From Giardia intestinalis (Eukaryota), in the NCBI GenBank assembly GCA_000002435.2, contig CM018791.1: DNA of 64,000 nucleotides. One strand, 5' to 3'. Made by a program: the position numbers and the translations under genes. This document shows positions 1-18,826 of this stretch, piece after piece; positions within the stretch are counted from its first letter, which is position 1, and each line of letters starts with the position of its first letter. The notes beneath the pieces are model-generated. The model was not told the origin of the DNA, made no database searches, and saw nothing but the letters and a program-made list of their open reading frames with translations.

Positions 1-1699
1 CACAACCCAATGGAACCCTTTATTTATCTAATGCAAGTTGTAGCTGTGACCTCATAAGCGCAGGACGTTCTAGAATAACCGGTCAACTACAGAGTTCGTC
101 CATTCATGTAGAGCCAGCAGATAGAGAGTGATATCAGTCTCGTCGATCGTCTAAAACGCACACCAGTCAAGTCTCACAGGCGAGCAAGCCCCACCTACCC
201 CGTAGCAATAAGCATCGGTGGGTGTCCCTCATAACGATAAGTAGACAGGCTTTCAACGGTCACGGCACTCGCTTTCCTGTTGAAGGCCTTCCAGTCACTG
301 ACCTAGGTCAGCCTCCTACAAGATCCGTGGCGGAATTGTATCAGAAATGCATGTTTATGGGACTCCCAGCTCAAGGTGTATGCTGCCGGATCCCACTTTC
401 CATACCAGTCTGTATACAGCGGTGTTCTGGCCTCTAATGAAACTACACTGGAGATCACATAAAATATAATGCCCCAGTCGGGTATTATCAGACTCCTATA
501 GCTATGCAATGAGGTCTGCTTTTCGCATTACGCATCAGAGAAGTATGTTGGGCTGTAGTGGTGCAATACCTCGTATGATATGGTTCGTGAGCCCAGAGAT
601 AAGATGCTTGTATCAGTCGATCTGTTTACCTAGGGCCAACCATAAGTTAGACTAACGGTGACAATCAGACTCTGCTCGACTCCCTAACAGCAGATAGAGA
701 TCCGACTACCCTAGTACCTTACCTGAGACCACAGGGACGCTGATTACGGGTCTGATTAATAGCTGGCGGAGCGACACGACAGGCCTAAGTTTTTTCTGCC
801 GAAGTAGCCCACCACAAGAAACTCTTTGTCGTTCATACCAACAAATTCAGGTGCTGCGAGCAATCATGGTTCTACTACTGCTACAATGGACAGCACCAGG
901 ATGATCCAAAAGGGGTAATGAAAGTCCTGGTTTCTTAGCTTAGGAGACAGCGCGGTTTGGGCAGTGCTTCTTGTCCAAATGTAGAAGTGTTGGCCTGCGT
1001 TTCCTGAACTCTAATTGAGTCCTTGTCATGCGGTAAGGTATCCTAAAATATCCACTACAAAAAGCGAAAAATAGCGCCGTCCACGCCCAACAAACCAAGA
1101 CGTCTCACGGGCTAATCTACGCTGGTTCATATCTTCCATGGACCCTAGCGACCACACCGATCTTCTCCTAGAATCTCACAGGAGCTCGTCTTTGAGTGCA
1201 GCTCTCCTACGACAGTCAGTGGTCGTGGACATTATATGGTGGAGGAGAATGCTACAGGGGCTGAGAAGAGAGTGCTGGCAAACGGGGGTCCGCAGGGATC
1301 CGACCCGCGCAAAGAAGGCGCAGGGGGCTGGCTCCTCAAGGATGCAGAGGCGCCAGGAAGGGAGCCGGTAGCGAACATGGTGCACAGCGGGAACACCCGG
1401 ACCATCCTCAGATTAATGGCAGGACAGAGGAGCTGCAGGCGCATGGGGCAGCATCACCGCTTGTTTTTGGATTTTCTGTTTCCCTGTGTGTTGCGTAAGG
1501 GGTTTCAGAGAAGGCGGGGAGTGTTGGGCTGTGTACAGCGGACGTACTTGGCACTCAATGAATTCCTATTTATTAAACAAAGTATCGTAGGGGACAGATC
1601 TTTTTGGATTGTCTGGCATAACATATAATCAGGTAGGGCGTTTTAGCTTTGGATATATTTACTAGTAGATTCTTACTTCTAATAAACTAATGAGCCTCA

Positions 1700-3601
1700 A
1701 TGTTGTTAATAGTATTCTATCTTGTGCTGAGTGCTCTTGCGGCAAATTGTGAAACAGAAGGCAATAAAAGCAATTGTGACAGCGGTCGCTGTGAAATGGT
1801 TGGCATTGTTGAAGTCTGTACTCAGTGCAAGACAAATGGACACGTCCCTATTGACGGAGTATGTACGCCAAAGAACGAAGCAGATGCTAATTGTAAGAAG
1901 GATGGAGGGAGTCCATTAGATCAAGACGCTAAGATCTGCGGGCAGTGTGCTCAAGGATACTTCCTTCATAAAGGTGGATGCTATGCAATTGGTGGAAACG
2001 TTGGACGCATCATCTGTAATGATCCTACTCCTACACTCAAAGGGCGCAATTCTGTTGAGGGTGTTTGCTCAGCGTGCAATTCTACCAGTGGATTCTTTAA
2101 GAATCCTGCCAATGTAGCTAATAAGGATTCGTGCATAGCATGTGATGATACAACTGGTGATAGTGGCAATGTAGGTTTGGAAGGATGCGCCACTTGCCAA
2201 CATTCTGGTTCGGGAGCAGCCACATGCTTAACATGTAAAGATGGATACTATGATAATAATCCAAGTCAGGATACTGTTACATGTGCATCATGTACGGATG
2301 ACTGTAAGACTTGCATAGATACTGGAAATGCTAAATGCACATCTTGTCAGACAAAATATTTAAAAATTACGGACCCTAATGGTGTGTTTGGGGAATGCGT
2401 TGATGAAAACACATGCAAACAGCCAGGAACCCACTTTCCGATAACAACTACAGATAACATAAAGGTATGTGCTCTTTGTAGCGATGCGGAGAATAAGGGC
2501 GTAGTTGGCTGTGCTAAATGTACCTCGACCCCAGCAAGTGATTCCGGCAATGCAATCATTGTTAAATGCATAGAATGCACAACGCCAGATACCACCAAAC
2601 CCAACTTTGCCGGGACAGGGTGCTTTGCTTGTTCTGCAACAGATTGCTCTAATTGCAGTGCAGATAATGTTTGCGAAAAATGTGGGAAAGGAAAGAAGCT
2701 GAGCCCTTTAAAGGATAGTTGTTTAGATAGTTGCCCTGCTGGCACGCACAACAAGGATAACGTTTGTGTCCCTTGCCACACATCTTGTGCAGAATGTGCA
2801 AGTGATTCTGTGGGAGAAAGCTCATGTACAGCTTGCTATCCTGGATTTGCATTGCGCAAAGGCGAGGACGAGGCTACCGGGGCATGTATTCCAGAATGCA
2901 CGGGAAAGTACGCAGAAAACTGTGAAGCTGGCCAGTGCACAGCCATCGTTGGAGGCTCCAAGTACTGCAGCAAGTGCAAGGCTGGATACGTTCCAGTGGA
3001 CGGCGTCTGTGTGTCGACAACAGCAAGGACGCCGACTGGATGCACGCCAAATGATAACAATGATGGAACATGTAAGGAATGCACAACCACATACTTCCTG
3101 CAGTCTGGCGGGTGTTACAATGCACAGACATTTCCGGGCAAATTGCTATGCACAGCGGCCACTGGCAACGGGCAGTGTCAGACATGTGCAGCCAGTGGAC
3201 AAAGCCCAGCTGGAGGAAAATGTCCGGAATGTTCTGAGGGCTGTGCAAAGTGTACTGACTCTAACACTTGTAACGAATGCTTTTCAGGATATTACAAAGG
3301 TGCTGGTAATAAATGCTTTAAATGTACCGATGGTGACAAGGCTAACTCTGATGCAATAACTGGTGTAGAGAACTGCGTAAGCTGCGCGCCTCCAATTAGT
3401 GGCAATGGTGGCTCTGTCATCTGCTACGTCAAGACGGATGGCACTGGCGGTGGTGATAATGATAACAACACCGGCGGAAGCACGAACAAGAGCGGCCTTT
3501 CCACGGGCGCCATCGCAGGCATCGCTGTGGCTGCTGTCATCGTTGTAGGAGGCCTTGTGGGCTTCCTCTGCTGGTGGTTCATCTGCAGAGGAAAGGCGTA
3601 G
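1700..3601 (+). CDS. vsp: Variant-specific surface protein (VSP), complete, 633 aa.
   Basis: ATG at 1700 and TAG at 3599-3601. The protein has an N-terminal signal-like peptide (MLLIVFYLVLSALAANC). It is Cys-rich with dozens of CXXC motifs. GGCY motifs are present (KGGCYAIGG, SGGCYNAQ). It has a single C-terminal TM helix (GAIAGIAVAAVIVVGGLVGFLCWWFI). The last five residues are the VSP-defining CRGKA. A Giardia poly(A) signal AGTAAAC lies 13 nt after the stop. Confidence 0.95.
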   Translation: MLLIVFYLVLSALAANCETEGNKSNCDSGRCEMVGIVEVCTQCKTNGHVPIDGVCTPKNEADANCKKDGGSPLDQDAKICGQCAQGYFLHKGGCYAIGGNVGRIICNDPTPTLKGRNSVEGVCSACNSTSGFFKNPANVANKDSCIACDDTTGDSGNVGLEGCATCQHSGSGAATCLTCKDGYYDNNPSQDTVTCASCTDDCKTCIDTGNAKCTSCQTKYLKITDPNGVFGECVDENTCKQPGTHFPITTTDNIKVCALCSDAENKGVVGCAKCTSTPASDSGNAIIVKCIECTTPDTTKPNFAGTGCFACSATDCSNCSADNVCEKCGKGKKLSPLKDSCLDSCPAGTHNKDNVCVPCHTSCAECASDSVGESSCTACYPGFALRKGEDEATGACIPECTGKYAENCEAGQCTAIVGGSKYCSKCKAGYVPVDGVCVSTTARTPTGCTPNDNNDGTCKECTTTYFLQSGGCYNAQTFPGKLLCTAATGNGQCQTCAASGQSPAGGKCPECSEGCAKCTDSNTCNECFSGYYKGAGNKCFKCTDGDKANSDAITGVENCVSCAPPISGNGGSVICYVKTDGTGGGDNDNNTGGSTNKSGLSTGAIAGIAVAAVIVVGGLVGFLCWWFICRGKA

Positions 3602-3613
3602 ATGTACTTAGGT

Positions 3614-3620
3614 AGTAAAC
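3614..3620 (+). promoter_or_regulatory. Giardia poly(A) signal AGTAAAC (AGTRAAY consensus) for VSP copy 1.
   Basis: Sequence ggtAGTAAACacg, 13 nt downstream of the TAG stop. AGTRAAY is the established Giardia polyadenylation signal. Confidence 0.7.
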
Positions 3621-4086
3621 ACGTTACTTTATGTAGCTTATGTAGATGTGCTGCTGGAGCTATCTGAGCACGGCCCAGGGATCATGTGGGTGGGCCCGTT
3701 CCTTCCTGTCCAGTCCTGAGACGACTGTCGGTCATGGATAACATGACGGAGAGTCCTCTCCAGTGATATATTCAGAGTCTGGGCATTCCTCGGCCACTTC
3801 GCAGGGGTATGCTCTGTCTGGATATCCATACCGATCTGCCTTGGATTCGGGCCTTTTTGTAGACTCTCTGCTCTACCAATGGCGCCTCTCCTTAGTCTCT
3901 CTTCACGGTGGGTGAGGCCCGGGTCGCTGTCTTTTTTAGATGCCCCGTCTGTCAGGGGCTGCCACCGGGCTCTCCGCTGGCTGGGCCCCTCGGTGTCCGG
4001 GCAGCTGTGGTTCTGGGTCAGCGCTCCCACGGTCACGGTCACGTAGGTTCCATAGCGGGCCGGCTGGTGGGGAGGCCGGGGTTGCT

Positions 4087-4133
4087 GGGGCGGTGAGGGC
4101 TGCTGGGACCGGGTGGGGTGGTGAGGTGGGGGG
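4087..4133 (+). other. Putative G-quadruplex motif on the sense strand, about 0.5 kb downstream of VSP copy 1.
   Basis: GGGGcggtgaGGGctgctGGGaccGGGtGGGGtggtgaggtGGGGGG. It has at least four G3+ tracts with loops of 1-6 nt (4087..4118), then a further G6 tract. The surrounding 3' flank (3900-4160) is G-rich on the VSP sense strand. Confidence 0.5.
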
Positions 4134-4160
4134 TGTCTGTATGTGCCCCTGGGTCCGGTG

Positions 4161-5855
4161 AACTGGGGTGATCGCAGCTGTGGTGACTGGGGGCTGTCCA
4201 TCTGTGACTCACCCCTCTGTGGACTCGTGGTCTGTGAGTGCCTCCACCCAGACAGCACCCCAGGAGCCGGAGAGTGGTGCCAGCCTAGCTGCCCTCCCTC
4301 CTCGGTGCCTCCCAGTGCAGACTCACCGGAGGCCACTACCCTGTCAGCCACCCAAAGGAGCCGTGCACACCGGGACAGAGAGGATGACCAAGGGGGTCAA
4401 GCAGCCCTGCCACGAGGGTGCACAGCAACCAGCATGAGATGTAGGGTCTGCTCGAGCGATGTAGTGGCAGACGACTCCCTCTGACAGCGACCCTGGTGAC
4501 TGCACTGGTCTGCTCTCGAGGCTGAGTGACAGTGTGCACAGATGGACATGAGTGCAGGAGGACCGTCCACACACGGACAGACTGTGTGGACCCAGAGAGG
4601 ACTGGAGTCTGCTCGGGACACGCTGACTGTGTGCCCATACGAGAGTGCCAGGCAACTACTCAAGCACCGAGAGGCAGGTACAGACACGGGCACTAGAGAT
4701 CCCCAGCCAGACACATTGCTATGCTCATCCACAGGGGCATCAGAGGGCCAGGTGGAGTCACCCTCACAGTTAGGGCCTGATAGGAAGCCAGAGGACTCAA
4801 ACACTACAGCAGAGCAGGCCCAGAGGAGGCACACTCCAGGCAGGTGAGCAGTGGCAGAGCCTTGATAGCTGCCATCCACCCCCATGACACCCAGGCAGGC
4901 ACCAGACTCCGAAGACTCGCTGGCCTCGACTGATGACCCGAGGGGGCAGCAGCCAGAGGAGCGAGGAGGCCTTCGGACGCCACAAGAGGCCGGCTGTCCA
5001 GCAGGCGATGAGGCAGACAGGTGACCTCTGAGCACCACACAGGCACAGAGCCGACCATCATGAGTGATGCCCGATCACAGAGATGACCACGAGCGCCCTC
5101 CACCGCACTCTGGGGGGCTGTCGATCATCCCACTGCCTCTCATAGCAGACCTCCTTGGGGGCAGTGCAGTGGGTCCCAGCTCATACAGGAGGGTGTGTGC
5201 CCCCCTCAGTATAGGATGCCCCGACTCTTCCCGAGGGGTCATCAGAGCCACGAGGAGGGGTCAAGGTCCTGGTGGATCATATCGGGAACTCCCGAGGGCA
5301 CAGCAGGTGAGGTGTGGGTGACCCTCAGCGTGCTCCTCTCTGCATGGTAGAGCATCCTGAGACCAAGGAAGCTCACCCCTGCCTACGGATGATACACAGC
5401 GCTCCACAACAAGGACCCACAAGGAGCAGCACAGCTGACCACGGGGGCAGTGCAGCCACCCGGTACCCCACCATGCCAGTCTTCTGGGCCATCACACTAG
5501 AGGCCTGAGAGAACCCCATCCCATCCACAGGGTCATCCACACCCCTGCTGGCCCGAGGTGAACTGCACCCATCGAGGCACTGGACAGGGCATGCTGGGGG
5601 CCCAGCAGATCCACACAGAGCATCAGCACAGAGCATCAGCGAGTAGCAGGAGAGGCTGCGATGGCCTGCCTCAGCCCTCACGCACCAGCCAGACAGAGCA
5701 GTACTGCCTGAGGCATGCAGGGGCCAAGGGAGGCGCTCAGTCAGGGGACACGACACGATCGTCGGTGCCTCTGTCTCAGGAGTACAACGAAGGCTGAAGA
5801 GCAGACACAGTCACCTTGGCAAACAGAACGGGGATCACCCACCACCCCAATGGCC
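4161..5855. other. Unique 1695-bp spacer at the centre of the palindrome. It is GC-rich and CA/TG-skewed, not itself palindromic, and has no convincing coding capacity.
   Basis: The sequence diverges from the mirror at both ends. ORFs here (e.g. 4397..5038-, 4542..4847+) are low-complexity, overlap on both strands, and are expected from high GC with few stop codons. Confidence 0.7.
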
Positions 5856-5882
5856 CACCGGACCCAGGGGCACATACAGACA

Positions 5883-5929
5883 CCCCCCACCTCACCACCC
5901 CACCCGGTCCCAGCAGCCCTCACCGCCCC
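5883..5929 (-). other. Mirror G-quadruplex motif downstream of VSP copy 2 (minus strand).
   Basis: Reverse-complement mirror of 4087..4133. The plus strand is C-rich here (ccccccacctcaccaccccacccggtcccagcagccctcaccgcccc). Confidence 0.5.
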
Positions 5930-6395
5930 AGCAACCCCGGCCTCCCCACCAGCCGGCCCGCTATGGAACCTACGTGACCGTGACCGTGGGAGCGCTGACC
6001 CAGAACCACAGCTGCCCGGACACCGAGGGGCCCAGCCAGCGGAGAGCCCGGTGGCAGCCCCTGACAGACGGGGCATCTAAAAAAGACAGCGACCCGGGCC
6101 TCACCCACCGTGAAGAGAGACTAAGGAGAGGCGCCATTGGTAGAGCAGAGAGTCTACAAAAAGGCCCGAATCCAAGGCAGATCGGTATGGATATCCAGAC
6201 AGAGCATACCCCTGCGAAGTGGCCGAGGAATGCCCAGACTCTGAATATATCACTGGAGAGGACTCTCCGTCATGTTATCCATGACCGACAGTCGTCTCAG
6301 GACTGGACAGGAAGGAACGGGCCCACCCACATGATCCCTGGGCCGTGCTCAGATAGCTCCAGCAGCACATCTACATAAGCTACATAAAGTAACGT

Positions 6396-6402
6396 GTTTA
6401 CT
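6396..6402 (-). promoter_or_regulatory. Mirror poly(A) signal AGTAAAC for VSP copy 2.
   Basis: Reverse complement gtttact at 6396..6402, 13 nt after the minus-strand stop at 6415. Confidence 0.7.
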
Positions 6403-6414
6403 ACCTAAGTACAT

Positions 6415-8316
6415 CTACGCCTTTCCTCTGCAGATGAACCACCAGCAGAGGAAGCCCACAAGGCCTCCTACAACGATGACAGCAGCCACAGCGATGCCTG
6501 CGATGGCGCCCGTGGAAAGGCCGCTCTTGTTCGTGCTTCCGCCGGTGTTGTTATCATTATCACCACCGCCAGTGCCATCCGTCTTGACGTAGCAGATGAC
6601 AGAGCCACCATTGCCACTAATTGGAGGCGCGCAGCTTACGCAGTTCTCTACACCAGTTATTGCATCAGAGTTAGCCTTGTCACCATCGGTACATTTAAAG
6701 CATTTATTACCAGCACCTTTGTAATATCCTGAAAAGCATTCGTTACAAGTGTTAGAGTCAGTACACTTTGCACAGCCCTCAGAACATTCCGGACATTTTC
6801 CTCCAGCTGGGCTTTGTCCACTGGCTGCACATGTCTGACACTGCCCGTTGCCAGTGGCCGCTGTGCATAGCAATTTGCCCGGAAATGTCTGTGCATTGTA
6901 ACACCCGCCAGACTGCAGGAAGTATGTGGTTGTGCATTCCTTACATGTTCCATCATTGTTATCATTTGGCGTGCATCCAGTCGGCGTCCTTGCTGTTGTC
7001 GACACACAGACGCCGTCCACTGGAACGTATCCAGCCTTGCACTTGCTGCAGTACTTGGAGCCTCCAACGATGGCTGTGCACTGGCCAGCTTCACAGTTTT
7101 CTGCGTACTTTCCCGTGCATTCTGGAATACATGCCCCGGTAGCCTCGTCCTCGCCTTTGCGCAATGCAAATCCAGGATAGCAAGCTGTACATGAGCTTTC
7201 TCCCACAGAATCACTTGCACATTCTGCACAAGATGTGTGGCAAGGGACACAAACGTTATCCTTGTTGTGCGTGCCAGCAGGGCAACTATCTAAACAACTA
7301 TCCTTTAAAGGGCTCAGCTTCTTTCCTTTCCCACATTTTTCGCAAACATTATCTGCACTGCAATTAGAGCAATCTGTTGCAGAACAAGCAAAGCACCCTG
7401 TCCCGGCAAAGTTGGGTTTGGTGGTATCTGGCGTTGTGCATTCTATGCATTTAACAATGATTGCATTGCCGGAATCACTTGCTGGGGTCGAGGTACATTT
7501 AGCACAGCCAACTACGCCCTTATTCTCCGCATCGCTACAAAGAGCACATACCTTTATGTTATCTGTAGTTGTTATCGGAAAGTGGGTTCCTGGCTGTTTG
7601 CATGTGTTTTCATCAACGCATTCCCCAAACACACCATTAGGGTCCGTAATTTTTAAATATTTTGTCTGACAAGATGTGCATTTAGCATTTCCAGTATCTA
7701 TGCAAGTCTTACAGTCATCCGTACATGATGCACATGTAACAGTATCCTGACTTGGATTATTATCATAGTATCCATCTTTACATGTTAAGCATGTGGCTGC
7801 TCCCGAACCAGAATGTTGGCAAGTGGCGCATCCTTCCAAACCTACATTGCCACTATCACCAGTTGTATCATCACATGCTATGCACGAATCCTTATTAGCT
7901 ACATTGGCAGGATTCTTAAAGAATCCACTGGTAGAATTGCACGCTGAGCAAACACCCTCAACAGAATTGCGCCCTTTGAGTGTAGGAGTAGGATCATTAC
8001 AGATGATGCGTCCAACGTTTCCACCAATTGCATAGCATCCACCTTTATGAAGGAAGTATCCTTGAGCACACTGCCCGCAGATCTTAGCGTCTTGATCTAA
8101 TGGACTCCCTCCATCCTTCTTACAATTAGCATCTGCTTCGTTCTTTGGCGTACATACTCCGTCAATAGGGACGTGTCCATTTGTCTTGCACTGAGTACAG
8201 ACTTCAACAATGCCAACCATTTCACAGCGACCGCTGTCACAATTGCTTTTATTGCCTTCTGTTTCACAATTTGCCGCAAGAGCACTCAGCACAAGATAGA
8301 ATACTATTAACAACAT
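6415..8316 (-). CDS. vsp: Second, identical copy of the VSP (633 aa), convergent with the first.
   Basis: Exact reverse-complement mirror of 1700..3601, with a 100% identical translation in the ORF track. Confidence 0.95.
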   Translation of the reverse strand: MLLIVFYLVLSALAANCETEGNKSNCDSGRCEMVGIVEVCTQCKTNGHVPIDGVCTPKNEADANCKKDGGSPLDQDAKICGQCAQGYFLHKGGCYAIGGNVGRIICNDPTPTLKGRNSVEGVCSACNSTSGFFKNPANVANKDSCIACDDTTGDSGNVGLEGCATCQHSGSGAATCLTCKDGYYDNNPSQDTVTCASCTDDCKTCIDTGNAKCTSCQTKYLKITDPNGVFGECVDENTCKQPGTHFPITTTDNIKVCALCSDAENKGVVGCAKCTSTPASDSGNAIIVKCIECTTPDTTKPNFAGTGCFACSATDCSNCSADNVCEKCGKGKKLSPLKDSCLDSCPAGTHNKDNVCVPCHTSCAECASDSVGESSCTACYPGFALRKGEDEATGACIPECTGKYAENCEAGQCTAIVGGSKYCSKCKAGYVPVDGVCVSTTARTPTGCTPNDNNDGTCKECTTTYFLQSGGCYNAQTFPGKLLCTAATGNGQCQTCAASGQSPAGGKCPECSEGCAKCTDSNTCNECFSGYYKGAGNKCFKCTDGDKANSDAITGVENCVSCAPPISGNGGSVICYVKTDGTGGGDNDNNTGGSTNKSGLSTGAIAGIAVAAVIVVGGLVGFLCWWFICRGKA

Positions 8317-11300
8317 TGAGGCTCATTAGTTTATTAGAAGTAAGAATCTACTAGTAAATATATCCAAAGCTAAAACGCCCTACCTGATTATATGTTATGC
8401 CAGACAATCCAAAAAGATCTGTCCCCTACGATACTTTGTTTAATAAATAGGAATTCATTGAGTGCCAAGTACGTCCGCTGTACACAGCCCAACACTCCCC
8501 GCCTTCTCTGAAACCCCTTACGCAACACACAGGGAAACAGAAAATCCAAAAACAAGCGGTGATGCTGCCCCATGCGCCTGCAGCTCCTCTGTCCTGCCAT
8601 TAATCTGAGGATGGTCCGGGTGTTCCCGCTGTGCACCATGTTCGCTACCGGCTCCCTTCCTGGCGCCTCTGCATCCTTGAGGAGCCAGCCCCCTGCGCCT
8701 TCTTTGCGCGGGTCGGATCCCTGCGGACCCCCGTTTGCCAGCACTCTCTTCTCAGCCCCTGTAGCATTCTCCTCCACCATATAATGTCCACGACCACTGA
8801 CTGTCGTAGGAGAGCTGCACTCAAAGACGAGCTCCTGTGAGATTCTAGGAGAAGATCGGTGTGGTCGCTAGGGTCCATGGAAGATATGAACCAGCGTAGA
8901 TTAGCCCGTGAGACGTCTTGGTTTGTTGGGCGTGGACGGCGCTATTTTTCGCTTTTTGTAGTGGATATTTTAGGATACCTTACCGCATGACAAGGACTCA
9001 ATTAGAGTTCAGGAAACGCAGGCCAACACTTCTACATTTGGACAAGAAGCACTGCCCAAACCGCGCTGTCTCCTAAGCTAAGAAACCAGGACTTTCATTA
9101 CCCCTTTTGGATCATCCTGGTGCTGTCCATTGTAGCAGTAGTAGAACCATGATTGCTCGCAGCACCTGAATTTGTTGGTATGAACGACAAAGAGTTTCTT
9201 GTGGTGGGCTACTTCGGCAGAAAAAACTTAGGCCTGTCGTGTCGCTCCGCCAGCTATTAATCAGACCCGTAATCAGCGTCCCTGTGGTCTCAGGTAAGGT
9301 ACTAGGGTAGTCGGATCTCTATCTGCTGTTAGGGAGTCGAGCAGAGTCTGATTGTCACCGTTAGTCTAACTTATGGTTGGCCCTAGGTAAACAGATCGAC
9401 TGATACAAGCATCTTATCTCTGGGCTCACGAACCATATCATACGAGGTATTGCACCACTACAGCCCAACATACTTCTCTGATGCGTAATGCGAAAAGCAG
9501 ACCTCATTGCATAGCTATAGGAGTCTGATAATACCCGACTGGGGCATTATATTTTATGTGATCTCCAGTGTAGTTTCATTAGAGGCCAGAACACCGCTGT
9601 ATACAGACTGGTATGGAAAGTGGGATCCGGCAGCATACACCTTGAGCTGGGAGTCCCATAAACATGCATTTCTGATACAATTCCGCCACGGATCTTGTAG
9701 GAGGCTGACCTAGGTCAGTGACTGGAAGGCCTTCAACAGGAAAGCGAGTGCCGTGACCGTTGAAAGCCTGTCTACTTATCGTTATGAGGGACACCCACCG
9801 ATGCTTATTGCTACGGGGTAGGTGGGGCTTGCTCGCCTGTGAGACTTGACTGGTGTGCGTTTTAGACGATCGACGAGACTGATATCACTCTCTATCTGCT
9901 GGCTCTACATGAATGGACGAACTCTGTAGTTGACCGGTTATTCTAGAACGTCCTGCGCTTATGAGGTCACAGCTACAACTTGCATTAGATAAATAAAGGG
10001 TTCCATTGGGTTGTGATGCTCCCTGTAGGTCCTACGGGGTGTGAGGCTACATCAGTGCAGTCACCGAGATAGCAGCCCTGCCTAATTGAATTTCGCAGAT
10101 CCAGAGTACAGTGCAGTGCCTTCCAGTTTATGAAATCAAGCCTACCTCAGACAACGAGGACAGATGGAGACTCGGAGATGATCAATGCTAGTCTGGGCTA
10201 CTCCAATCTTTGCTATCCGAGGGAGCAGCAAACCCGCAGAATAACAGAAGTCCACTTATGCCCCTACCCAGGAGGCCGTGCCCTAGTGGAAGTACGTGCC
10301 ACGATCGCCGCTAATACCCGTTGACGGGCCATCATCTGCGCTCAAGGTCATGAGCTGGACCACTAGTTGAATACGAAGCAACAGTAATATTATACATACA
10401 ATAAGCCGAGAAGACCAATGCTGATTGTGTACCTCCCACGCTGAGCATACTCAGTGTGCAGTGCAAAGGGTCTAACGCCCTAAATAGTTTGTTGAAACCA
10501 AATGCGTGGTGCTAATCATATGCATGTGGACTCCAAACAGCGGCTTGCGAGGAGATACTGGGGCACAAGGGCTGTCAGGCCTATATGAGACGCACAGAGG
10601 ATCCCCACGCAGTAAACCGATTGACCCTTTTCCTTGGTAGGAAGACCCTAACCTGTAGTGGCCGCCTGCATGACACATTCCTTTGTGGGACCGATGGAGG
10701 CACCTGTTGATCTAGAAAGGCCATCAATAAATGGTTGCACGAGATGGACAAGCAAGGGACAGGAGCTGACTATACCACCCTGGGTGATGAGCAATCTAAA
10801 CTACATAATGCGTGTGCCAACCTTTGGTCGAAGGTGAAGGTACACTGTAGAACACCACGTGGCCGAAAAGTGTTGTTGATGATCATCTGCCATGAGAAGA
10901 CGTAGGTGAGACATCTGCGGACAGCAACCACGCCGACTGATACCAGCCTGCGCAGTATACCTCTACAAATGATCCTTGCCTGTATACGGAGAGAACTTAA
11001 GCTTCCTCGGTTTCAAGCGAAGTGGACCCCAATAGATATTATGCTGCTACAAATGCATAAAATCAAAAAGCAGCGTCCAGCTTGTCAGCGGGCCTCACGA
11101 TCTTTCCACACTCGAAGGGCAGAAAGATACTACAGGTGTCCCTATTGCAATCCAGACCGGTAGCTGGCCTCTCTAGCACCAGCCTTGCCCAACTGGTCCG
11201 CTGGTCACCCCTACCTTCTCTGTATGAACCGGTTCTCCAGGAATCGCCATGCACGGGCAGCCTTCTACGCACTTAGCCGACATCCTCCTTTGTTAAGGTG

Positions 11301-14300
11301 TGTCATCAAGGGGTAAGTGTTATAAAGAGGGTGCAGCCCGAGGCAGACCCTCTCGCAGTCCTGTCCAACGCTAGCAGCGAGCATGCAAACAAGCACATAG
11401 ATAGGTGAGGAGCGTGCCTTAGTCCAAACCGGTCACCACACTAATATCATAACAATTGATGTGTAGAGTTCTGCCTTTAGCTTTATATGTAGGTCTAGGT
11501 CTCACCTTGAAAGGCAGCAGAGCGTTCCATAACACCTTTCTGAATGTACATTTGTCATTACAACTGGTGGAAGTGCAAGTACAGAAACTGTATGCCTGCC
11601 TAAAAGGGTATCTAGTGCGATTAACTGCTATTCCTTGCTAGCAACAGATGGGTTAGATATTATGGTATCTATGCTACCTACTAGGACGGCACATGGCTAT
11701 GCATGGATCATCAGAGAAGCCGCTGTAATGCTTGTTCAATCTATTGGACAAGTGCAGCTTCTTGTCGCAACAAATGTGGCGGCGGGCAGGCCACCAATGT
11801 AAGCCAGGTGAACTGCCTATCCCGGTGCAGCTGTGCGCATCTAAAAGTTGGAGTACCTCTCCATAAAAGCGACACACCATCTATATATCTTTTTGCCTCA
11901 CTTTGTGCTATTCACAGGCTGTAATGCCTCAGAAGTCAGGGCTAGTGCAGAGTGCCCCAAACAATCCGTCTAGGGGACCAAGGTCGATACCGTGCATAAT
12001 ACATCCTCCTAGGGAGACAGCGGCTGCCGTCGTCGTCCCGGATTTTTTGGTGTCAGACAATCGGGCCCGTGGTGAGTTTACTCCTCGCAGCCCCTGTCCT
12101 GCATATCGAGGCTGACTTCTGGTTGCTTAAGTCGCGGACGAGGAGGTGATGCAGAGCGTCAGTCGCTGGGCTACCTTTTATCCGCACATGGTCCTGAATG
12201 GCAGGTCAGACAGTGCACAACTTCCTCTTCTACTCTGAATGTAGTGTCACCTATCTGAGATATATGCGCTTCCAGGGAGTGATTGGGTAGCATCTGGAGC
12301 TGCTCATGATGGGCATAGTCACTATTCATTTAGCTCTGCCCTTTTCCCAGCCATCAGGGGATACATCTTTAGCTACGTGCCCTAAAGTACTGCATAGCGA
12401 TAACAAGACGGCACCATTACCCCTCAGGTCTTCTTGGCTTGTCCGGCAGTGTGGACTTACCAGATGCATCGACACGACTATGGATACCTTACAGCATCGC
12501 ACCCACCCAGCTCACTGTGCACCCTGTCCCATCTAGAGAGTAGCCCAGTCGTGCACAGGAACCCTCAATTCCCATCCAGGGCCTGGTCCAATGCTCAGCT
12601 GGCTTGAACTCCCTGCTGTACCGTGTTGGATGCCGCGCTGAAGCTATCGGTCCGGCGATGCTCTGGGCACACCACTCCACACTCGCGCCGTCATAGAGCA
12701 CCGGTCCTCAAGCCGCCCGTGGCCCATTACGAGAGCTGTGGGGCATGACCGCACGCAGAGTGCCTGAATCAGTATGTCGTCTACCCGCTAATATGCTTCA
12801 CTAGTGCCCATCGATTCCGCTAGCACCTGTGAACGAAGACGTGTTGCTATGGTCGCACAGCTTTTTATATGTCCTAAAGACTCTCATGCTATACAGTACA
12901 AGGTTTGTTGCCTGGCAGTGGTTCCATGATACTGAGACTTTAAAAGGGGCCTTAAGTGTCTCCAGTCCCGTTCAGAGAGGAGGAGTACAAAAGGGCTAGC
13001 CACTTTCCAACGTGACTTAGAATAGTTAGAATATTGTGTGAAGGCATCTTATCACGTGACCAGCGCGGTGTCCTGCTCCCCGTCACCGATGTGAGGGCTG
13101 GTCCGCTGAGTTAGCATCAAGGCAGAGCACCACCCAACAGTGCGGGCGAGACTTATAACTTGTTCCTTCAATGTGCAGCTGCTTCGACTGAGGTTGCTAA
13201 AGTGTGGGTCCAGTAGCCACTATGCCCGTTGTACTGACAACGACAGCATGCCACTTGCTGTAGGCGCCATCTACCTCCAGGCATGCCCTCCACCGTCGTG
13301 CTGCCTCTGGTGCACTATGCGGCTTGTATGATGATTCATGTCCCCGGCGACCAATGGGAGTGTTGTCCCCGTGCCATCTTGATATCGAGTCTGATAACTG
13401 CTAAACAGAACTCCAGATGTGTATAGCCTCATATGGTAGTCTTGATGGACACACACATGCGTAATAGTTATACTGCAAGATCTAATAACAGCAGCTGGCC
13501 ACTCGCATTGAGGTGAGATACCAGACAGACGTAGAAGTGGAAGACCCAAGAGAAGCCGTACCTGTGATGAACTACAGATACGAAGAGACTCACCTGTCAC
13601 TGCCACGGGAACATGGCCTTATGCAGAGCATCAGCAAGCAATGCCACGAGCAGTACTCTGACTGTGCAGCAGCAAAGTGGCCGATGATATGGAATGCTGA
13701 CACATCTGCTGCCGTCATGGATGGACTGGCAAGCCAGACAAGGATGCTTTACCCTGAGATGAGCTGGCATGAAATTGTGTATGACTGGAGGACACTTCCT
13801 TGTTATGCCTGCTATCGGAAACCAGCTCATGAGATGGACAACCTTGGAGTGGTCAGCCCCCGCGTTCTCCCAGACATCAAAACTGTGAGGGTCTCTGTGA
13901 GTTCTCATGTTCTCGTTTAGTCACGCTGACTTGTCCTCAGAAGCAGTCATAACTGTCGGGCCTGTTCGGATGCCACTCCCCTGCAGGCCTCGGTGCTTTG
14001 AGCACGGTTTCCAGGCTGCATGCGTACGTTGAGGGACATCAGGTACGTCATCTGCTCCCTACTTTCTGAGCCTGCTATGACAAGAGTAGCCCTCACTAGT
14101 CTGAACCAGCCACGCCTCCTGGCGTCTCACCCCGGAAGTTGCAGGGATCAGACAGCTGGTGGCCTTATTTACGTTATGGCTGCCATGATGGCAAATCTAC
14201 TATCAGAGTTTTGATGAAATCCTCTTCGCTGTCCCTGGCGGACCTCCAACTCTTCAATGGGATAGATACGGGGCACAGTCTACCGACACTTCCAGCGAGG

Positions 14301-17300
14301 ATAGCAGGCGCAGTGCTCTCGATACCAATGATGGATCTACAAGAGGGAGCAGATCTTCTGCATGCCCCTGCCAGGAAGTGGCGCTGACGTGGGCCAAACG
14401 TATTGTCCCCGAGATGTCCTTGGAAGGTTGAGACCTCTGCTGATAGCAATCAAGGACTGGGCCAGCAGGTAACTCTAGGAGGATTCGGGTCCAGCTTCAG
14501 CCAGGAGTGTTTGTAAAGCAGCACCCGTGCAGTGAGGCTTCGAGAATCATCCAAGTGGCACTATCCAAGGACCACTTCCCCGAGAGAACAGAAGGTTGGG
14601 GGACCGACTCCTGAAGGGCGCTCTCGCAGTCTACTGAACAGAAGAGAGGGCCAGAAAGCAACAATCATCTCTGGATCCACAGCTCTTCTATCATAGAGAC
14701 ACTGGGATGGTCAGAGCACTCCCCTCAAGAAGAACAGGAAGTAACATAGCGGCACAGCGCTGATGCTCATGGAATATGGTTGATGAGCCCCTGGCTTCTG
14801 CTGGATACGAGATGCGTGCTGAGAGCAAGGTGTCTGGATTGGGACGGTTATGCCTCTCCAGAGAAGAGGCAGGAGGCGCCGTCATAGATGGGCATGTGCC
14901 TGAAGGAGACACACAGGGCGGTGGCTGCTCTGCTGGCAACAGAGGACAATCCGAAGCATGCAGGTCTCAAACAAAGAAACGTGCATTCTGAAGAACTATC
15001 GACGCTAAGGAACGAGCCAGTTCTCTGTATCACCCGGCAGAGGAGTATAAGGGCTGCTACTCGCTTCTCAAGCTTCTCACTCAACTTAGACTTCCCTGGC
15101 TTCCGATTACCACATGGACCACTGAGAGTGCTAACTGCTCTTCCAATCCACAATAGATGCGGAGCAATAGCAAGCTTCGTTTGAGCGCAGTACTAAGCAG
15201 CGTAATATATGCAAAGACAGCTCTTAGAAGTCAATGTAAGGTATCATCTTGGTAACGGCAATCGCCCTTGAATCAGCCGTTCAGTGGAGACAGGGGTCTA
15301 ATACGGCACAGTTGGGCCATATACAGGCAGTGGGTGTAAGAGCTATTGTAGACAGACACCGCCGCTAAGAACGCCAGAGGGGAGCTCCCATCAGCTAATG
15401 TGTTTCCAGAGCCACGTCTCTAGCGGAGCATGGCCTCCCGCAGTAAGATTTTGCAGGTGTCACCTGTAGTAATTCTGGATGCTTTATGGGGTGAAGCAGC
15501 TTATCCACAGACTTCACGAGACCGGGGCTGCCCACATAGCTACTAAGGTGAGAGAGTGTGATTGTACGGAGCAACGCTATGTCTGCTCTTCCATCACTTA
15601 GCGGCCAGAGGATTGCTCTCAGGCTGCACCTCCGCTCATAAGTGTGCGAGGGTTCCTCTAGTGATTGTCTCGTTGGCTAGTTAGCTACAGATGCCATGGC
15701 GACATAGATCACTAGTGCATACGCTGGGTTACTTTTTGCTAGAGCAGACAGAGGCATGACAGATCAATCCAGGAGCGTCTTCTCACGTCGCACGAAAATG
15801 TGGATCTACACACTAGGGGTGCATTCTCATAAACAGCTTCCTCTGCCATGACTCAGAGCTATCAGGCGAGCAGTGACGCTTCAGAGCCATCTGCCTCCTC
15901 TATGCGAGAGTTACTCGATAGACCAGAGTCGCTGCCAGAAGGTGTGCTTTGCAGCAGACAGAGTATCTCGTGTCTCAAGCCTGTCTGGCCGTACTAGGAA
16001 CTGAAGCCATGCCGCTAAGCCTCAGTGGATCAGAAAGCACTCCGCAGCCAGTGTGACTCTTGTGATGTTAGCTTCTGAGGCTATGGAGGAGCCCTTGGCC
16101 TCGTGGTCTTTGCACTATGGGTCCACTCATTTGGCCGTCTTACTCAGATGAGTAGAACGCGGTGCCTTCTGCAAGTCCCTATACTGCGAGTTCGCGCTAG
16201 GATCCATTAGTGTCTAACTAGTTTGGTGGAACTCTGCTCTTATCCCCACAAGTTTGTTACTGCAGATAACTCACTGTATTGACTCTATGGTGATCGCAAG
16301 TATTCCAAAGCTGGGGAACTGTCTGTTAGAGCTACCGGTCCCGGCCTTCATTAAGCCCGCGATTGCCTCATCAAAGCCTCCACACACTACGAAGCAGGTT
16401 TCTACCCGTCTGCTATGTACCTATGGTCTGCCTTAGACTTCGTGTGTCAGAGTCTGGTGTTGAAGGATGCGATTCTGCGTAGCTTAGTCAAAGCCTTACT
16501 AATTGGGTATCTGCTCTCATCTATCCGGATCAAGGATCTGTTGGCGACTATGCCTGAATCTGTTCTCTGCAGGAGTGTCCTCTCGGGCTGTAGATATCCT
16601 CTGTCCTCGAAGTGGTGCTAGTTCAAGCTGTCACAGTAAGTGGGGGCTCCTGCAGCCAGTGGAGTCAGCGTCTTCTGACCCGACATGCACCAGGGCCTCC
16701 AGAAGCAGCGACCTCCATCTGCCATGGCTAGTAAATGCCCTCCATAGAGCTTATACGGTGACATGGCCTTCCAAGCCGTAACGCCTAGGGTTGCGGATGG
16801 ATGTAAGCGATTGCTTCATAGAGTATTGCGACTATCAATAGCAGGGGAAATGAGAACAACAAGTAGCGGCAGCAGACCGTAGAGCAGCAGGTAGGAACGG
16901 GACTGGGTCGCGTTCGCTCTTCTACACTAAACTGGATCGTCTCTCTAAAAGACTCAGAGAGACGCAGCAGTGTCTCCGCGACTGTAAAGCAAGCCTAGTC
17001 AATTACCAGGCTTGTAAGAGAAACATGCAGCCAGACGCTGTAACTGCTGTCCGAGCAAATCCCTCATGCAAGTGCCATGCAAAGAACTTCCCTGCTTGTT
17101 CATCATCTGAAGTCAGGGAATCGAGGTTCAGATGTTGTCCCATTTTGGTGACAAAGGAGAATGCTTCTTCCCTCAAGGCGATAGCGAGTGCAGATGAGCG
17201 TTTGAAGCTGGCAATGGCGCCGATCACTCGCCACGCTTGTCGAGATGGACCCACACGTGATTCATATGAATCCCTTGACAAGAGATGAGGCCCTTGGGGT

Positions 17301-18181
17301 GCTTGGCTGACGGAGGCAAATTGAACACATGACCGCACCGAAGAGCGGTGGCGGCCTGGGCCACCTGCCGGGCGTCTGCTACAACAGCTGGCAGTGCCTG
17401 ACACCCTCGAGTAGGCGGACACTAAGCGAGACGACCTGACGGTGAACCGGTCCTGATCGCTCTTGGTGCTTCGGATGACGCCCCTCGGAGAGGTGGCCCT
17501 GGACTGACGCCTCGACAGACCGAAGCATCACCCCAAGTGTGCTGTGCAGATGGACCAGCCCACACGTCAGCCGAGCCAGACGCACTGCATAGAATGATGC
17601 GCCGACACGGTCTCGTGCTGGGTGACGGAGCACCTGCAAGAGTGCACTGTGATCCATGAGCAGAGGGCCATACTTCTCCCCCGACACAACACATGGGAGC
17701 TGTCCGTGGCATCCACAAACGCGTACCACAACTCCAAGATAGAGGCGCACGGGGAGCAGACCCTCCAATCATACTCGAGACTGATGGTATAATCCACGAG
17801 GAGACGAAGAGGCACCCCAAGGAACGAGGTAGACACCCGAAGTCATAGCGTATCCCATCTTTGTCATGGAGTACCAGAACCCTGGATTCTGTGGAGGCTA
17901 GACTACTCCCAAGGTCAGGTCACCGCAACTAATGCAAGGTCCTGAGATAGTAGGTGCCCACTAGTGCCAGACGGTAGTTGACCCCGACGGGCCAGAGGAT
18001 GGGACGTCCTGGAAGGCACCGTGGAAGCAAGCGATGGCCACCGGGGGAAGGAACACAACATCTTCTTCTCCCGCCGGAGATGGATGGAATCCAGCTTTCA
18101 GAGTCTGATTCCGGGCTTTGCCCAGAGCGGAGCGGCCCGTGTGGGACTTGCTCGGATATATCTCTTCAATAAAATCTATAT

Positions 18182-18808
18182 ATGAGACAGGGGCGTGGCC
18201 AAATTACATATACAGCGCCTCCATTGCAGCAGCCGGCCATTCAAACTCAACAGAATATAGTGTCCATACAGCCTATTGGTCATTCTGGTGCGCCAAGACT
18301 AGACTTTTCTGGACAGCTTTTGCAGACTCTTCAACAAGAGAAGCACATATTCAGCGACGAAGAGCTTGCATTGCCGTCTCTTCATTCAGCTCTGCCATGT
18401 ATTTCAGCAAAAGTTAGTACTACTGCCCGATGGCCTCCAGTACGGCCTAGCTTAGGAAATGTGTGGAATACGGCGTCTACAAAACATATTTCAACGATCC
18501 CAACCACAACTGACTTCCCAAAACCGTGCTCTTCATGGCTAGAGTCACTCAATACGATCTATCTGCAAGACGAGGACACGCTTTTTCTTATATGGATCGT
18601 TATGCCGGGAACACAGGCCCAGGAGCTGGCTGGCGCCGCCCTTGAGAAGCTTGGATGGCGCTACGATATCGACTCATCGGTTTGGTATCTCTGTGACACA
18701 CAAAATAAGGTGCTTTACTACGATACAGTAACCATGAGCCGGAAGGACTCCCTCAGTGCGCCATCTAACCTCTCAAAATGCTCGTTCTACATAGATGGGC
18801 ATATCTAA
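18182..18808 (+). CDS. CCR4-NOT complex NOT2/NOT3/NOT5-family protein (NOT-box), 208 aa.
   Basis: ATG at 18182 preceded by AT-rich caataaaatctatatATG. The C-terminal EDTLFLIWIVMPGTQAQELAGAALEKLGWRYDIDSSVWYL matches the NOT-box of CNOT2 (EDLLFYLYYMNGGDVLQLLAAVELFNRDWRYHKEERVW, recalled from memory). The N-terminus is Gln-rich. Confidence 0.7.
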   Translation: MRQGRGQITYTAPPLQQPAIQTQQNIVSIQPIGHSGAPRLDFSGQLLQTLQQEKHIFSDEELALPSLHSALPCISAKVSTTARWPPVRPSLGNVWNTASTKHISTIPTTTDFPKPCSSWLESLNTIYLQDEDTLFLIWIVMPGTQAQELAGAALEKLGWRYDIDSSVWYLCDTQNKVLYYDTVTMSRKDSLSAPSNLSKCSFYIDGHI

Positions 18809-18826
18809 TCTAATGTCTCTTTATTA

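What the first reader, a model, noticed from the sequence alone, without database searches (positions are those of the whole stretch)
1..10016. A 10-kb near-perfect palindrome with two identical, convergent, complete VSP genes
Two 4160-bp arms are reverse-complement identical at every position I checked. Each arm carries 1.7 kb of 5' flank, a full 633-aa VSP gene and 0.56 kb of 3' flank. The genes point at each other, with stops 2.8 kb apart across a unique 1.7-kb spacer. The left arm reaches the window edge, so the true repeat may be larger. Tail-to-tail VSP gene pairs about 3 kb apart have been described in Giardia, so this is not unprecedented. Complete identity over more than 4 kb in a family that otherwise diverges quickly suggests very recent duplication or ongoing gene conversion between the arms. 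A structure like this is also the classic look of a long-read foldback or chimeric-read assembly artefact, and that needs to be excluded.
Basis: partly seen in the sequence, partly recalled or inferred. Interest (0 to 1): 0.8.

Follow-up and report, generated by a model that had tools for sequence, protein, structure and literature searches.

The report
Known identical tail-to-tail Giardia VSP pair
This is a real but already published feature of the Giardia intestinalis WB genome: two identical copies of one surface-antigen (VSP) gene that face each other across a 1.7-kb spacer. It is one of about 13 such pairs in that genome, so it is ordinary for this organism.

Summary
Window 1-4160 and 5856-10015 are reverse complements with 0 mismatches, separated by a 1695-nt spacer. 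Each arm holds 1699 nt of 5' flank, a 633-aa VSP gene and 559 nt of 3' flank.

The protein is GenBank 'VSP with INR', present twice in both Giardia WB assemblies. The locus is vsp1.1/vsp1.2 (GL50803_115830/115831, chromosome 3). Adam et al. 2010 tabulate it with 3' divergence 559 nt and ORF distance 2814. Xu et al. 2020 tabulate it as -> <-, 633 aa, 2813 bp. A Sanger assembly and a PacBio/Illumina/optical-map assembly therefore agree, which excludes a foldback artefact. Novelty: already known.

New here: the 3' flank-spacer-3' flank block is a multi-copy non-coding module. Six sequence-distinct homologous modules were found across five gut-metagenome samples. They are 87-96% identical to WB in the spacer and less in the arms. 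Each junction recovered lies at the same position as in WB.

One homologue has a single VSP and decayed arms (79% overall, up to 88% in the best block). The inverted repeat is therefore older than the perfect identity of the WB arms. This favours arm-to-arm gene conversion, or repair seeded by the repeat, over a simple recent duplication.

The outer end of the repeat lies beyond the window edge and is unresolved.

The parts
1..4160 (+). Left arm of the inverted repeat, cut off by the window edge
   Evidence: 100% reverse-complementary to 5856-10015 with 0 mismatches
1..1699 (+). 5' flank of vsp1.1, inside the arm. It has no ORF longer than 130 aa.
   Evidence: It is 67.6% identical to the upstream region of an unrelated 506-aa VSP in loci L002/L008.
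1698..1704 (+). VSP initiator element CAATGTT, which spans the start codon
   Evidence: It matches the Inr type listed for vsp1.1/1.2 in Adam 2010 Additional file 1.
1700..3601 (+). vsp1.1 (GL50803_115830): 633 aa, 74 Cys, 26 CXXC motifs, GGCY at residues 92 and 470, C-terminal CRGKA
   Evidence: Pfam PF03302 E=2.1e-80. Exact match to XP_001709824/5 and KAE8302857/8.
3614..3619 (+). Giardia poly(A) signal AGTAAA, starting 13 nt after the stop codon
   Evidence: This block is conserved in the VSP-proximal arms of homologous loci.
3602..4160 (+). 3' flank of vsp1.1 (559 nt), forming the inner part of the left arm. T exceeds A on the sense strand.
   Evidence: The length of 559 nt equals the '3' divergence' given for pair 1 in Adam 2010 Table 5.
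4069..4118 (+). G-rich tract that fits a canonical G-quadruplex motif, 42 nt from the arm/spacer junction
   Evidence: It is one of only three such motifs in the 64-kb window, and all three lie at the junctions.
4161..5855 (.). Unique non-coding spacer: 1695 nt, 62% G+C, with A=401 and T=244 on the + strand
   Evidence: It shows no codon periodicity (p=0.37), has indels that are not multiples of 3, and has no Pfam or Rfam hit. It is 87-96% identical to spacers next to other VSPs.
4270..4349 (.). Insertion of roughly 80-95 nt specific to this WB spacer (approximate limits)
   Evidence: All six homologous spacers lack it. BLAST alignments break at 4269/4350, and MAFFT shows a 95-nt gap.
5838..5865 (-). 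G-quadruplex-type motif on the - strand that straddles the right arm/spacer junction
5898..5947 (-). Mirror copy of the G-rich tract at 4069-4118
5856..10015 (-). Right arm of the inverted repeat
6415..8316 (-). vsp1.2 (GL50803_115831; earlier clone name S4), identical to vsp1.1
6397..6402 (-). Poly(A) signal of vsp1.2, the mirror of 3614-3619
   Evidence: Follows from the perfect symmetry of the arms
8312..8318 (-). Inr CAATGTT of vsp1.2, the mirror of 1698-1704
   Evidence: Follows from the perfect symmetry of the arms
10016..11517 (-). Continuation of the conserved VSP upstream region beyond the visible end of the arm. Whether it also belongs to the repeat cannot be seen from this window.
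   Evidence: Homology at 68% with locus L008 runs unbroken from 8523 to 11517

Best explanation
This is the published vsp1.1/vsp1.2 locus (GL50803_115830/115831) on chromosome 3 of Giardia intestinalis WB. It belongs to the known class of identical inverted VSP gene pairs. It is a genuine genomic palindrome, not an assembly artefact.

The two convergent genes flank a roughly 2.8-kb non-coding module: a 559-nt 3' flank, a 1695-nt spacer, and the same 3' flank inverted. This module is an old, multi-copy family found downstream of many different VSP genes.

The arm/spacer junctions are shared with diverged family members, yet the WB arms are perfectly identical. I therefore infer that the identity is produced by intrachromosomal repair templated by the other arm. 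This could be ongoing arm-to-arm gene conversion. It could equally be one recent repair event, seeded by the inverted repeat, that re-copied one arm outward from the ancestral short repeat.

The consequence is two copies of one antigen gene that evolve as a unit. No separate function of the pairing is shown.

Shown: the identity of the locus, its reality, the module family, and the conserved junctions. Inferred: the conversion mechanism.
For: Identity of the locus:
- The protein is an exact match to XP_001709824/5 and KAE8302857/8.
- Adam 2010 Table 5 lists pair 1 with 3' divergence 559 and distance 2814. Additional file 1 gives 633 aa, 74 Cys, 26 CXXC, CAATGTT and chromosome 3. All of these were reproduced from the window.
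- Xu 2020 Table 2 lists chr 3, 115830/115831, -> <-, 633 aa, 2813 bp.

The module is a family:
- A spacer ORF used as a probe found ENA metagenome contigs.
- Six sequence-distinct homologous modules (L002-L007) came from four samples. Further contigs carrying the L002-type VSP (L008-L013) came from other samples, one of which (L011) reaches the spacer.
- Identity to WB is 87-96% in the spacer, 82-90% in the inner arm, 57-78% in the outer arm and 68% in the 5' flank. The VSP coding regions are essentially unalignable.
- The donor genome is assemblage-A-like. Its VSP is 100% identical to ESU34817.1, and its cathepsin B is 97% identical to WB.

The repeat is older than the arm identity:
- The junction ...TGTATGTGCCCCTGGGTCCGGTG| falls at the same alignment column in WB and in L003. 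The two different spacer ends (a-type and b-type) are each conserved.
- L003 has only one VSP. Its arms are 79% identical overall and 88% in the best block, with one perfect 77-nt tract.
- Which arm is most similar to which changes from block to block along the arms.

Polarity is conserved. The A-T skew switches at about 4243, next to the left junction, and not at the palindrome centre (5008). L003 shows the same polarity.

Literature context:
- In the 2007 WB assembly no identical VSPs were found outside inverted pairs, and in the 2020 assembly all 20 pairs are nucleotide-identical.
- G. muris also has seven identical inverted pairs.
Against: - No orthologous pair from a diverged isolate was compared, so concerted evolution is not directly demonstrated.
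- The homologous loci come from metagenome contigs, which could be chimeric. None of them carries two full arms.
- The shared junction could reflect a recurrent hotspot rather than common descent.
- A recent whole-module duplication followed by replacement of the VSP cannot be fully separated from ongoing conversion.
- Published authors interpret the pairs as recent duplication and transposition (Adam 2010; preprint).
Confidence: 0.75

Rival explanations
1. Simple recent duplication. The inverted copy was made so recently that no mutation has yet occurred, and there is no continuing exchange between the arms.
For: There are 0 differences in 4160 nt. WB has very low sequence variation in general. 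Adam 2010 and the 2022 preprint favour duplication or transposition.
Against: The arm/spacer junctions and both spacer ends are shared with family members that differ by 4-13% in the spacer and 15-40% in the arms. All 20 WB pairs are nucleotide-identical, and no identical VSPs were found outside inverted pairs in the 2007 assembly. G. muris shows the same pattern. Twenty independent duplications, each with zero divergence and all inverted, are unlikely.
Confidence: 0.25
2. Assembly artefact: a long-read foldback or chimeric read created a false palindrome.
For: A perfect palindrome that reaches a sequence edge is the typical appearance of such artefacts. Doubts of this kind were raised about the earlier assembly.
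Against: Two copies are present in both the Sanger (2007) and the PacBio+Illumina+optical-map (2020) assemblies. The geometry matches to the base in two papers. There are 12-13 analogous pairs with distances of 2.5-2.8 kb. The vsp1267 pair was described before any genome assembly existed. Homologous a-type and b-type junctions occur in independent short-read metagenome assemblies.
Confidence: 0.02
3. The 2.8-kb block is, or derives from, a mobile element with terminal inverted repeats of about 0.4-0.56 kb. This element spreads among VSP loci and drives their duplication.
For: The module is multi-copy and keeps the same ends. In L003 it occurs with a VSP on one side only. The preprint reports transposable-element relics around duplicated VSPs.
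Against: The spacer has no coding capacity and no Pfam hit. No target-site duplications were identified. In WB the 'terminal repeats' continue outward through the VSP and at least 1.7 kb of 5' flank, so the repeat is not bounded like an element. The arms diverge more than the spacer does.
Confidence: 0.12
4. The convergent arrangement has a regulatory role. Read-through transcripts from the two genes would overlap in the spacer, form double-stranded RNA and feed RNAi-type VSP silencing.
For: The genes are convergent, and the spacer is better conserved than its flanks. RNAi has been proposed for VSP control; this rests on general knowledge and was not tested here.
Against: A canonical poly(A) signal starts 13 nt after each stop codon, so transcripts should end about 0.5 kb before the spacer. 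Seven of the pairs are head-to-head and are equally identical. There is no Rfam hit and no structural evidence. No expression data were examined.
Confidence: 0.05

Closest known systems
Identical inverted VSP pairs of Giardia intestinalis WB (vsp1267 prototype; Adam et al. 2010 Tables 4-5; Xu et al. 2020 Table 2)
   Same: It is literally one of them, pair 'vsp1' = 115830/115831. It is tail-to-tail, has identical ORFs, has 2813 nt between the ORFs, and its flanks stay identical up to an abrupt divergence point 559 nt past the stop codon.
   Different: Nothing differs in kind. The identical 5' flank is at least 1699 nt. That exceeds the 139-729-nt range quoted for the divergence points that were measured. 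The 5' divergence of tail-to-tail pairs was left unreported in that paper.
Identical head-to-head and tail-to-tail VSP pairs of Giardia muris (Xu et al. 2020, Microb Genom)
   Same: These are also identical VSP genes in inverted pairs.
   Different: In G. muris the intervening DNA carries NEK, ankyrin or zinc-finger genes or pseudogenes. Here the spacer is non-coding.
Human Y-chromosome ampliconic palindromes (P1-P8), maintained by arm-to-arm gene conversion
   Same: Both have long, near-perfect inverted arms around a unique spacer, with genes in mirror copies. In both, arm identity is higher than the age of the structure would predict. This comparison rests on general knowledge.
   Different: The scale differs: 4 kb or more here against 9 kb-1.45 Mb there. 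Conversion is inferred here and not demonstrated by cross-species comparison. The genes here are antigen genes in an asexual tetraploid protist.
Neisseria pilE G4-initiated gene conversion (antigenic variation)
   Same: A G-quadruplex-type motif lies next to an antigen gene, at the edge of the tract that is recombined. The analogy is drawn from general knowledge.
   Different: There is no evidence that the Giardia motif folds or initiates anything. The canonical motif is only partly conserved in the family. VSP switching is regarded as epigenetic, not recombinational.

Membership tests
Giardia variant-specific surface protein (VSP) | C-terminal transmembrane segment followed by the invariant CRGKA tail | tested here: met
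   The protein ends ...[31 protein letters not shown]
Giardia variant-specific surface protein (VSP) | Cysteine-rich ectodomain with many CXXC motifs and GGCY motifs | tested here: met
   74 Cys (11.7%), 26 CXXC motifs, GGCY at residues 92 and 470. These values equal those in Adam 2010 Additional file 1.
Giardia variant-specific surface protein (VSP) | Match to the Pfam VSP profile (PF03302) above the gathering threshold | tested here: met
   E=2.1e-80, 271 bits against a cut-off of 31.4
Giardia variant-specific surface protein (VSP) | N-terminal signal peptide | not tested
   A hydrophobic N-terminus, MLLIVFYLVLSALAANC, is visible. No signal-peptide predictor was available.
Giardia variant-specific surface protein (VSP) | Inr (C/T)AATGTT at the start codon and a poly(A) signal AGTRAA just after the stop codon | tested here: met
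   CAATGTT at 1698 and AGTAAA at 3614
Identical inverted VSP pair (Adam 2010 / Xu 2020 class) | Two identical ORFs in inverted orientation | tested here: met
   1700-3601 (+) and 6415-8316 (-) are 100% identical
Identical inverted VSP pair (Adam 2010 / Xu 2020 class) | 2-4 kb of intervening non-coding DNA | tested here: met
   2813 nt lie between the ORFs. The spacer shows no coding signal.
Identical inverted VSP pair (Adam 2010 / Xu 2020 class) | Flanks identical up to an abrupt point of divergence | tested here: met
   The inner divergence falls exactly at 4160/4161 and 5855/5856, and only 32 of the next 100 positions match. The outer divergence point is not visible because of the window edge.
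Identical inverted VSP pair (Adam 2010 / Xu 2020 class) | Listed as such in the published catalogues | tested here: met
   Adam 2010 Table 5, pair 1 (559; 2814), with gene numbers 115830/115831 in Additional file 1. Xu 2020 Table 2, 115830/115831, 633 aa, 2813 bp.
Palindrome homogenised by arm-to-arm gene conversion (Y-chromosome type) | The inverted-repeat structure is older than the arm-to-arm divergence would imply | tested here: inconclusive
   The junctions are shared with family members whose spacers differ by 4-13%, while the WB arms differ by 0%. However, the comparison is with paralogous metagenome loci, not with orthologous pairs.
Palindrome homogenised by arm-to-arm gene conversion (Y-chromosome type) | Arms within a locus share derived substitutions relative to the orthologous locus in a sister lineage | not testable with these tools
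   No other Giardia genome assembly can be reached. Exact look-up of the VSP in the contig index found nothing, and its 90% cluster has only two members.
Palindrome homogenised by arm-to-arm gene conversion (Y-chromosome type) | Patchy conversion tracts where the arms have begun to diverge | tested here: inconclusive
   The L003 arms are 77-88% identical but contain one perfect 77-nt tract, and the nearest-neighbour relations change from block to block. This is suggestive, but conservation of a functional block could mimic it.
Transposable element with terminal inverted repeats | Defined termini, target-site duplication and coding capacity or an autonomous partner | tested here: not met
   The spacer has no coding signal or Pfam hit. 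In WB the repeat continues through the gene and at least 1.7 kb of upstream DNA, so it has no element-like terminus. Target-site duplications were not sought systematically.

The most novel reading that the evidence does not exclude
The roughly 2.8-kb block between tail-to-tail VSPs may not be passive junk. It consists of two inverted 3' flanks with G-quadruplex-prone inner ends around a polar, non-coding spacer that is better conserved than its flanks. It could be a dedicated recombination scaffold. Breaks or stalled replication forks at its G-rich junctions would be repaired from the opposite arm. That would both create perfect VSP palindromes from single-VSP loci such as L003 and keep them identical. 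In effect it would be a built-in duplication and homogenisation device for antigen genes.
Probability: 0.15. Interest if true: 0.6.

Novelty: already known. Interest (0 to 1): 0.15.

Why it matters
As a finding it adds nothing new. The pair is tabulated in two genome papers and a preprint, and the artefact question has been settled by independent assemblies.

It matters in practice for three reasons. Identical inverted pairs break short-read assemblies. They make RNA-seq reads map to two places. They also inflate counts of the VSP repertoire.

The side result here is of modest interest for how Giardia's antigen repertoire evolves. The inter-gene module is an old, conserved, polar, non-coding family with fixed junctions, so the perfect arm identity most likely reflects templated repair rather than youth. 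This could be tested directly with the complete genomes now available.

Tried and rejected
- **Contig look-up of the VSP.** Exact look-up in the contig index found nothing on two attempts. No independent contig of this very locus could be fetched.
- **RNA families.** An Rfam scan of 1-20000 at E<=1 gave no RNA family.
- **Protein domains.** Pfam on five ORFs over the spacer and 3' flanks, four ORFs from 13.3-17.8 kb of the ORF-poor region and one 5'-flank ORF gave nothing. One sub-threshold 'Myogenic Basic' hit (E=0.01, below the cut-off) was dismissed as compositional.
- **Is the spacer a gene or pseudogene?** Rejected. Substitutions are spread evenly over codon phases (p=0.37), and most indels are not multiples of 3.
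- **Is the spacer a decayed continuation of the palindrome?** Rejected. Only 32 of 100 positions match past the junction, and the A-T skew does not flip at the centre. Only a GGGTGATC 8-mer aligns, with a 10-nt indel.
- **Further VSP genes or pseudogenes in the window.** None found (tblastn).
- **Other repeats in the window.** None found.
- **JGI metagenome scan.** A scan with a 26-mer conserved across the whole family gave 0 hits.
- **G4 motif as a conserved family feature.** Only partly supported, in WB and L003 arm A.
- **Outer boundary of the repeat.** It could not be determined. The only clue is that a short-read contig ends near window 17970, which is not interpretable on its own.
Full report
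**Observation.** The inverted repeat is exactly as described. Arms 1-4160 and 5856-10015 are 100% complementary, and a base-by-base count gives 0 mismatches in 4160 nt. The spacer is 4161-5855, 1695 nt. The finding's end of 10016 is one base too far. Each arm contains 1699 nt of 5' flank, a 633-codon ORF (1700-3601 +; 6415-8316 -) and 559 nt of 3' flank. The stop codons are 2813 nt apart. Complementarity ends abruptly, with only 32 of the next 100 positions matching. No other repeat of 40 nt or more exists in the 64-kb window. The left arm runs into window position 1, so the outer limit of the repeat cannot be seen.

**What the gene is.** The protein has all the VSP hallmarks:
- 74 cysteines, 26 CXXC motifs and two GGCY motifs;
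- a hydrophobic C-terminal segment ending in CRGKA;
- the initiator CAATGTT across the ATG;
- an AGTAAA poly(A) signal starting 13 nt after the stop codon;
- a Pfam PF03302 match at E=2e-80.

The exact sequence is in GenBank as 'VSP with INR' of Giardia intestinalis. It has two accessions from the 2007 assembly (XP_001709824.1 and XP_001709825.1) and two from the 2020 assembly (KAE8302857.1 and KAE8302858.1).

**It is already published.**
- Adam et al. 2010 (PMC2996952) describe 14 identical inverted VSP pairs in WB.
- Their Table 5 lists tail-to-tail pair '1' with a 3' divergence point 559 nt beyond the stop codon and 2814 nt between the ORFs.
- Their Additional file 1 gives vsp1.1/1.2 = GL50803_115830/115831, chromosome 3, 633 aa, 74 Cys, 26 CXXC, Inr CAATGTT. 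Every number matches the window.
- Xu et al. 2020 (PMC7000408; PacBio plus Illumina, checked against optical maps) list '3 | 115830 | 115831 | -> <- | 633 | 2813'.
- A 2022 preprint (10.1101/2022.03.07.483299) notes that such pairs had been questioned as artefacts of the older assembly. It confirms 20 nucleotide-identical pairs, 13 tail-to-tail and 7 head-to-head.
- G. muris has seven identical inverted pairs as well.

The foldback-artefact reading is therefore excluded by independent sequencing technologies.

**Surroundings.** To the right of the repeat, 8317-18181 has no ORF of 140 aa or more, no Pfam hit among the ORFs tested and no VSP-like sequence. This fits the published remark that VSP neighbourhoods are gene-poor. 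Ordinary genes follow from 18.2 kb: a NOT2/3/5-domain protein, a RING finger protein, a PPIP5K-type kinase/phosphatase, a protein kinase and an ankyrin protein. A short-read Logan contig covering these genes ends at about window 17970.

**The spacer and 3' flanks form a conserved non-coding module.** The spacer is G+C-rich (about 62%) and strongly A>T on the + strand (401 A against 244 T, p=7e-10). I used its longest ORF purely as a probe and found seven predicted 'proteins' on ENA metagenome contigs. I fetched the DNA for five of them. Further contigs came from the neighbouring VSP.

The donor genome is Giardia of assemblage-A type:
- its 506-aa VSP is 100% identical to GenBank ESU34817.1;
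- a flanking cathepsin B is 97% identical to the WB paralogues and 98-100% identical to ESU proteins;
- a flanking tubulin-acetyltransferase-like gene is 94% identical to GL50803_117393.

These loci carry different VSP genes, and the coding regions barely align. They nevertheless share the WB architecture. Identity to WB is 87-96% across the spacer, 82-90% in the inner arm, 57-78% in the outer arm and about 85% again at the poly(A) block. The upstream region is 68% identical over about 3 kb, from window 8523 to 11517. Three different spacers come from a single sample (L002, L003, L006), so these are paralogous copies within a genome.

The spacer is non-coding. Substitutions show no codon periodicity (p=0.37), most indels are not multiples of three, and neither Pfam nor Rfam finds anything. 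The preprint had already noted 'almost identical intergenic sequences' between some duplicated VSPs, so the existence of this family is only partly new.

**Junctions and polarity.** In a multiple alignment of arm ends, the arm/spacer boundary falls at the same column in WB and in L003. The sequence there is ...TGTATGTGCCCCTGGGTCCGGTG|. The two non-complementary spacer ends are each conserved in every locus that reaches them. The 'a' end begins AACTGGGGTGATCGCAGC... and the 'b' end begins GGCCATTGGGGTGGTGGGTGATCCCC....

The A-T skew changes sign at about 4243, next to the left junction, and not at the palindrome centre (5008). L003 has the same polarity. Compositionally, the spacer is a continuation of the 3' flank of the right-hand gene. 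This suggests that the ancestral unit was one VSP with a long 3' region, against which an inverted copy was placed. That origin is an inference.

**Why the arms are identical.** L003 carries only one VSP. Its second arm is a remnant of about 400 nt. The two arms are 79% identical overall and 88% in the best block, and they include one perfect 77-nt tract. Which arm is closest to which changes from block to block along the arms. This mosaic pattern is typical of patchy recombination.

The inverted repeat and its junctions therefore predate the divergence of family members, which differ by 4-13% in the spacer. Yet the WB arms differ at 0 of 4160 positions. The literature adds two facts. In the 2007 assembly no identical VSPs were found outside inverted pairs, and in the 2020 assembly all 20 pairs are nucleotide-identical.

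Taken together, the most economical explanation is repair templated by the opposite arm. This could be continuing arm-to-arm gene conversion, as in human Y-chromosome palindromes. It could also be a recent break-induced copying event seeded by the old short repeat, which extended perfect identity outward through the gene. I put this at about 0.6, against about 0.25 for a simple recent duplication with no exchange.

It is not proven. No orthologous pair from another isolate could be retrieved, and the comparison loci are metagenome contigs.

**Lesser readings.** A transposon-like element with terminal repeats is unlikely as a current mechanism. The spacer has no coding capacity, and the WB repeat has no element-like terminus. 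A role for convergent read-through transcripts in RNA silencing is not supported by the sequence. Poly(A) signals start 13 nt after each stop codon, and head-to-head pairs are equally identical.

**A detail noticed in passing.** The only three canonical G-quadruplex motifs in the 64-kb window sit within 100 nt of the two arm/spacer junctions. This fits the idea of a break-prone or fork-stalling boundary. However, the canonical motif is conserved only in WB and one L003 arm, so it is a lead and not evidence.

**Verdict.** The feature is already known: it is one named member of a catalogued class. Interest is low. The added value is the evidence that the inter-gene module is an old, polar, non-coding family with fixed junctions, which shifts the balance from 'recent duplication' towards 'templated homogenisation'. 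The open points are the outer boundary of the repeat and a direct test of conversion. Both need only a BLAST against the complete Giardia assemblies, which these tools cannot reach.

Noticed in passing
window 4069-4118 (+), 5898-5947 (-), 5838-5865 (-): The only three canonical G-quadruplex motifs (G3+N1-7, four runs) in the whole 64-kb window lie within 100 nt of the two arm/spacer junctions. One of them straddles the right junction. The canonical motif recurs in L003 arm A (885-944). The other family members have only a G-rich tract with longer loops or a 40-nt deletion.
   Followed up: partly
window 8317-18181: About 9.9 kb has no ORF of 140 aa or more, no Pfam hit among the ORFs tested, no VSP-like sequence, no tandem repeats and no Rfam hit. 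This is unusual for a genome that is 81% coding. A short-read Logan contig (L001) that covers the genes to the right stops at about window 17970. That stop might mark a repeat boundary.
   Followed up: partly
window 8523-11517 vs L008 6268-9291: The region upstream of the VSP is 68% identical over about 3 kb to the region upstream of an unrelated 506-aa VSP in an assemblage-A-like metagenome genome. The homology runs 1.5 kb past the visible end of the arm at 10015. VSP upstream regions are therefore long conserved units, and the repeat may extend beyond the window.
   Followed up: partly
window ~4270-4349: The WB spacer has an insertion of roughly 80-95 nt that is absent from all six homologous spacers.
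   Followed up: no
L003 425-2951: This is a 'solo' version of the module. There is one VSP, a full spacer and an inverted remnant of the 3' flank about 400 nt long. The arms are 79% identical overall and 88% in the best block, with one perfect 77-nt tract. A tubulin-acetyltransferase-like gene (94% identical to GL50803_117393) sits where the second VSP would be.
   Followed up: partly
L002 191-480: The left end of this contig carries a fragment of the 3'-flank arm in direct, not inverted, orientation relative to its VSP-proximal arm. It is joined to the spacer at the position equivalent to window 5354, so the b-side 500 nt of the spacer are missing. This is either a rearranged locus or a chimeric metagenome contig.
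   Followed up: no
L011, L012, L013: Contigs from three different samples that carry the same 506-aa VSP all begin 2762 nt upstream of the ATG and end about 860-890 nt past the stop codon. This points to fixed repeat boundaries around that locus in the donor genome.
   Followed up: no
window 3602-4160 vs homologues: Divergence among family members rises with distance from the spacer. Identity is 87-96% in the spacer, 82-90% in the inner arm and 57-78% in the outer arm. It is higher again (81-86%) in the 60 nt around the poly(A) signal. It is unexplained why a non-coding spacer is better conserved than the gene flanks.
   Followed up: partly
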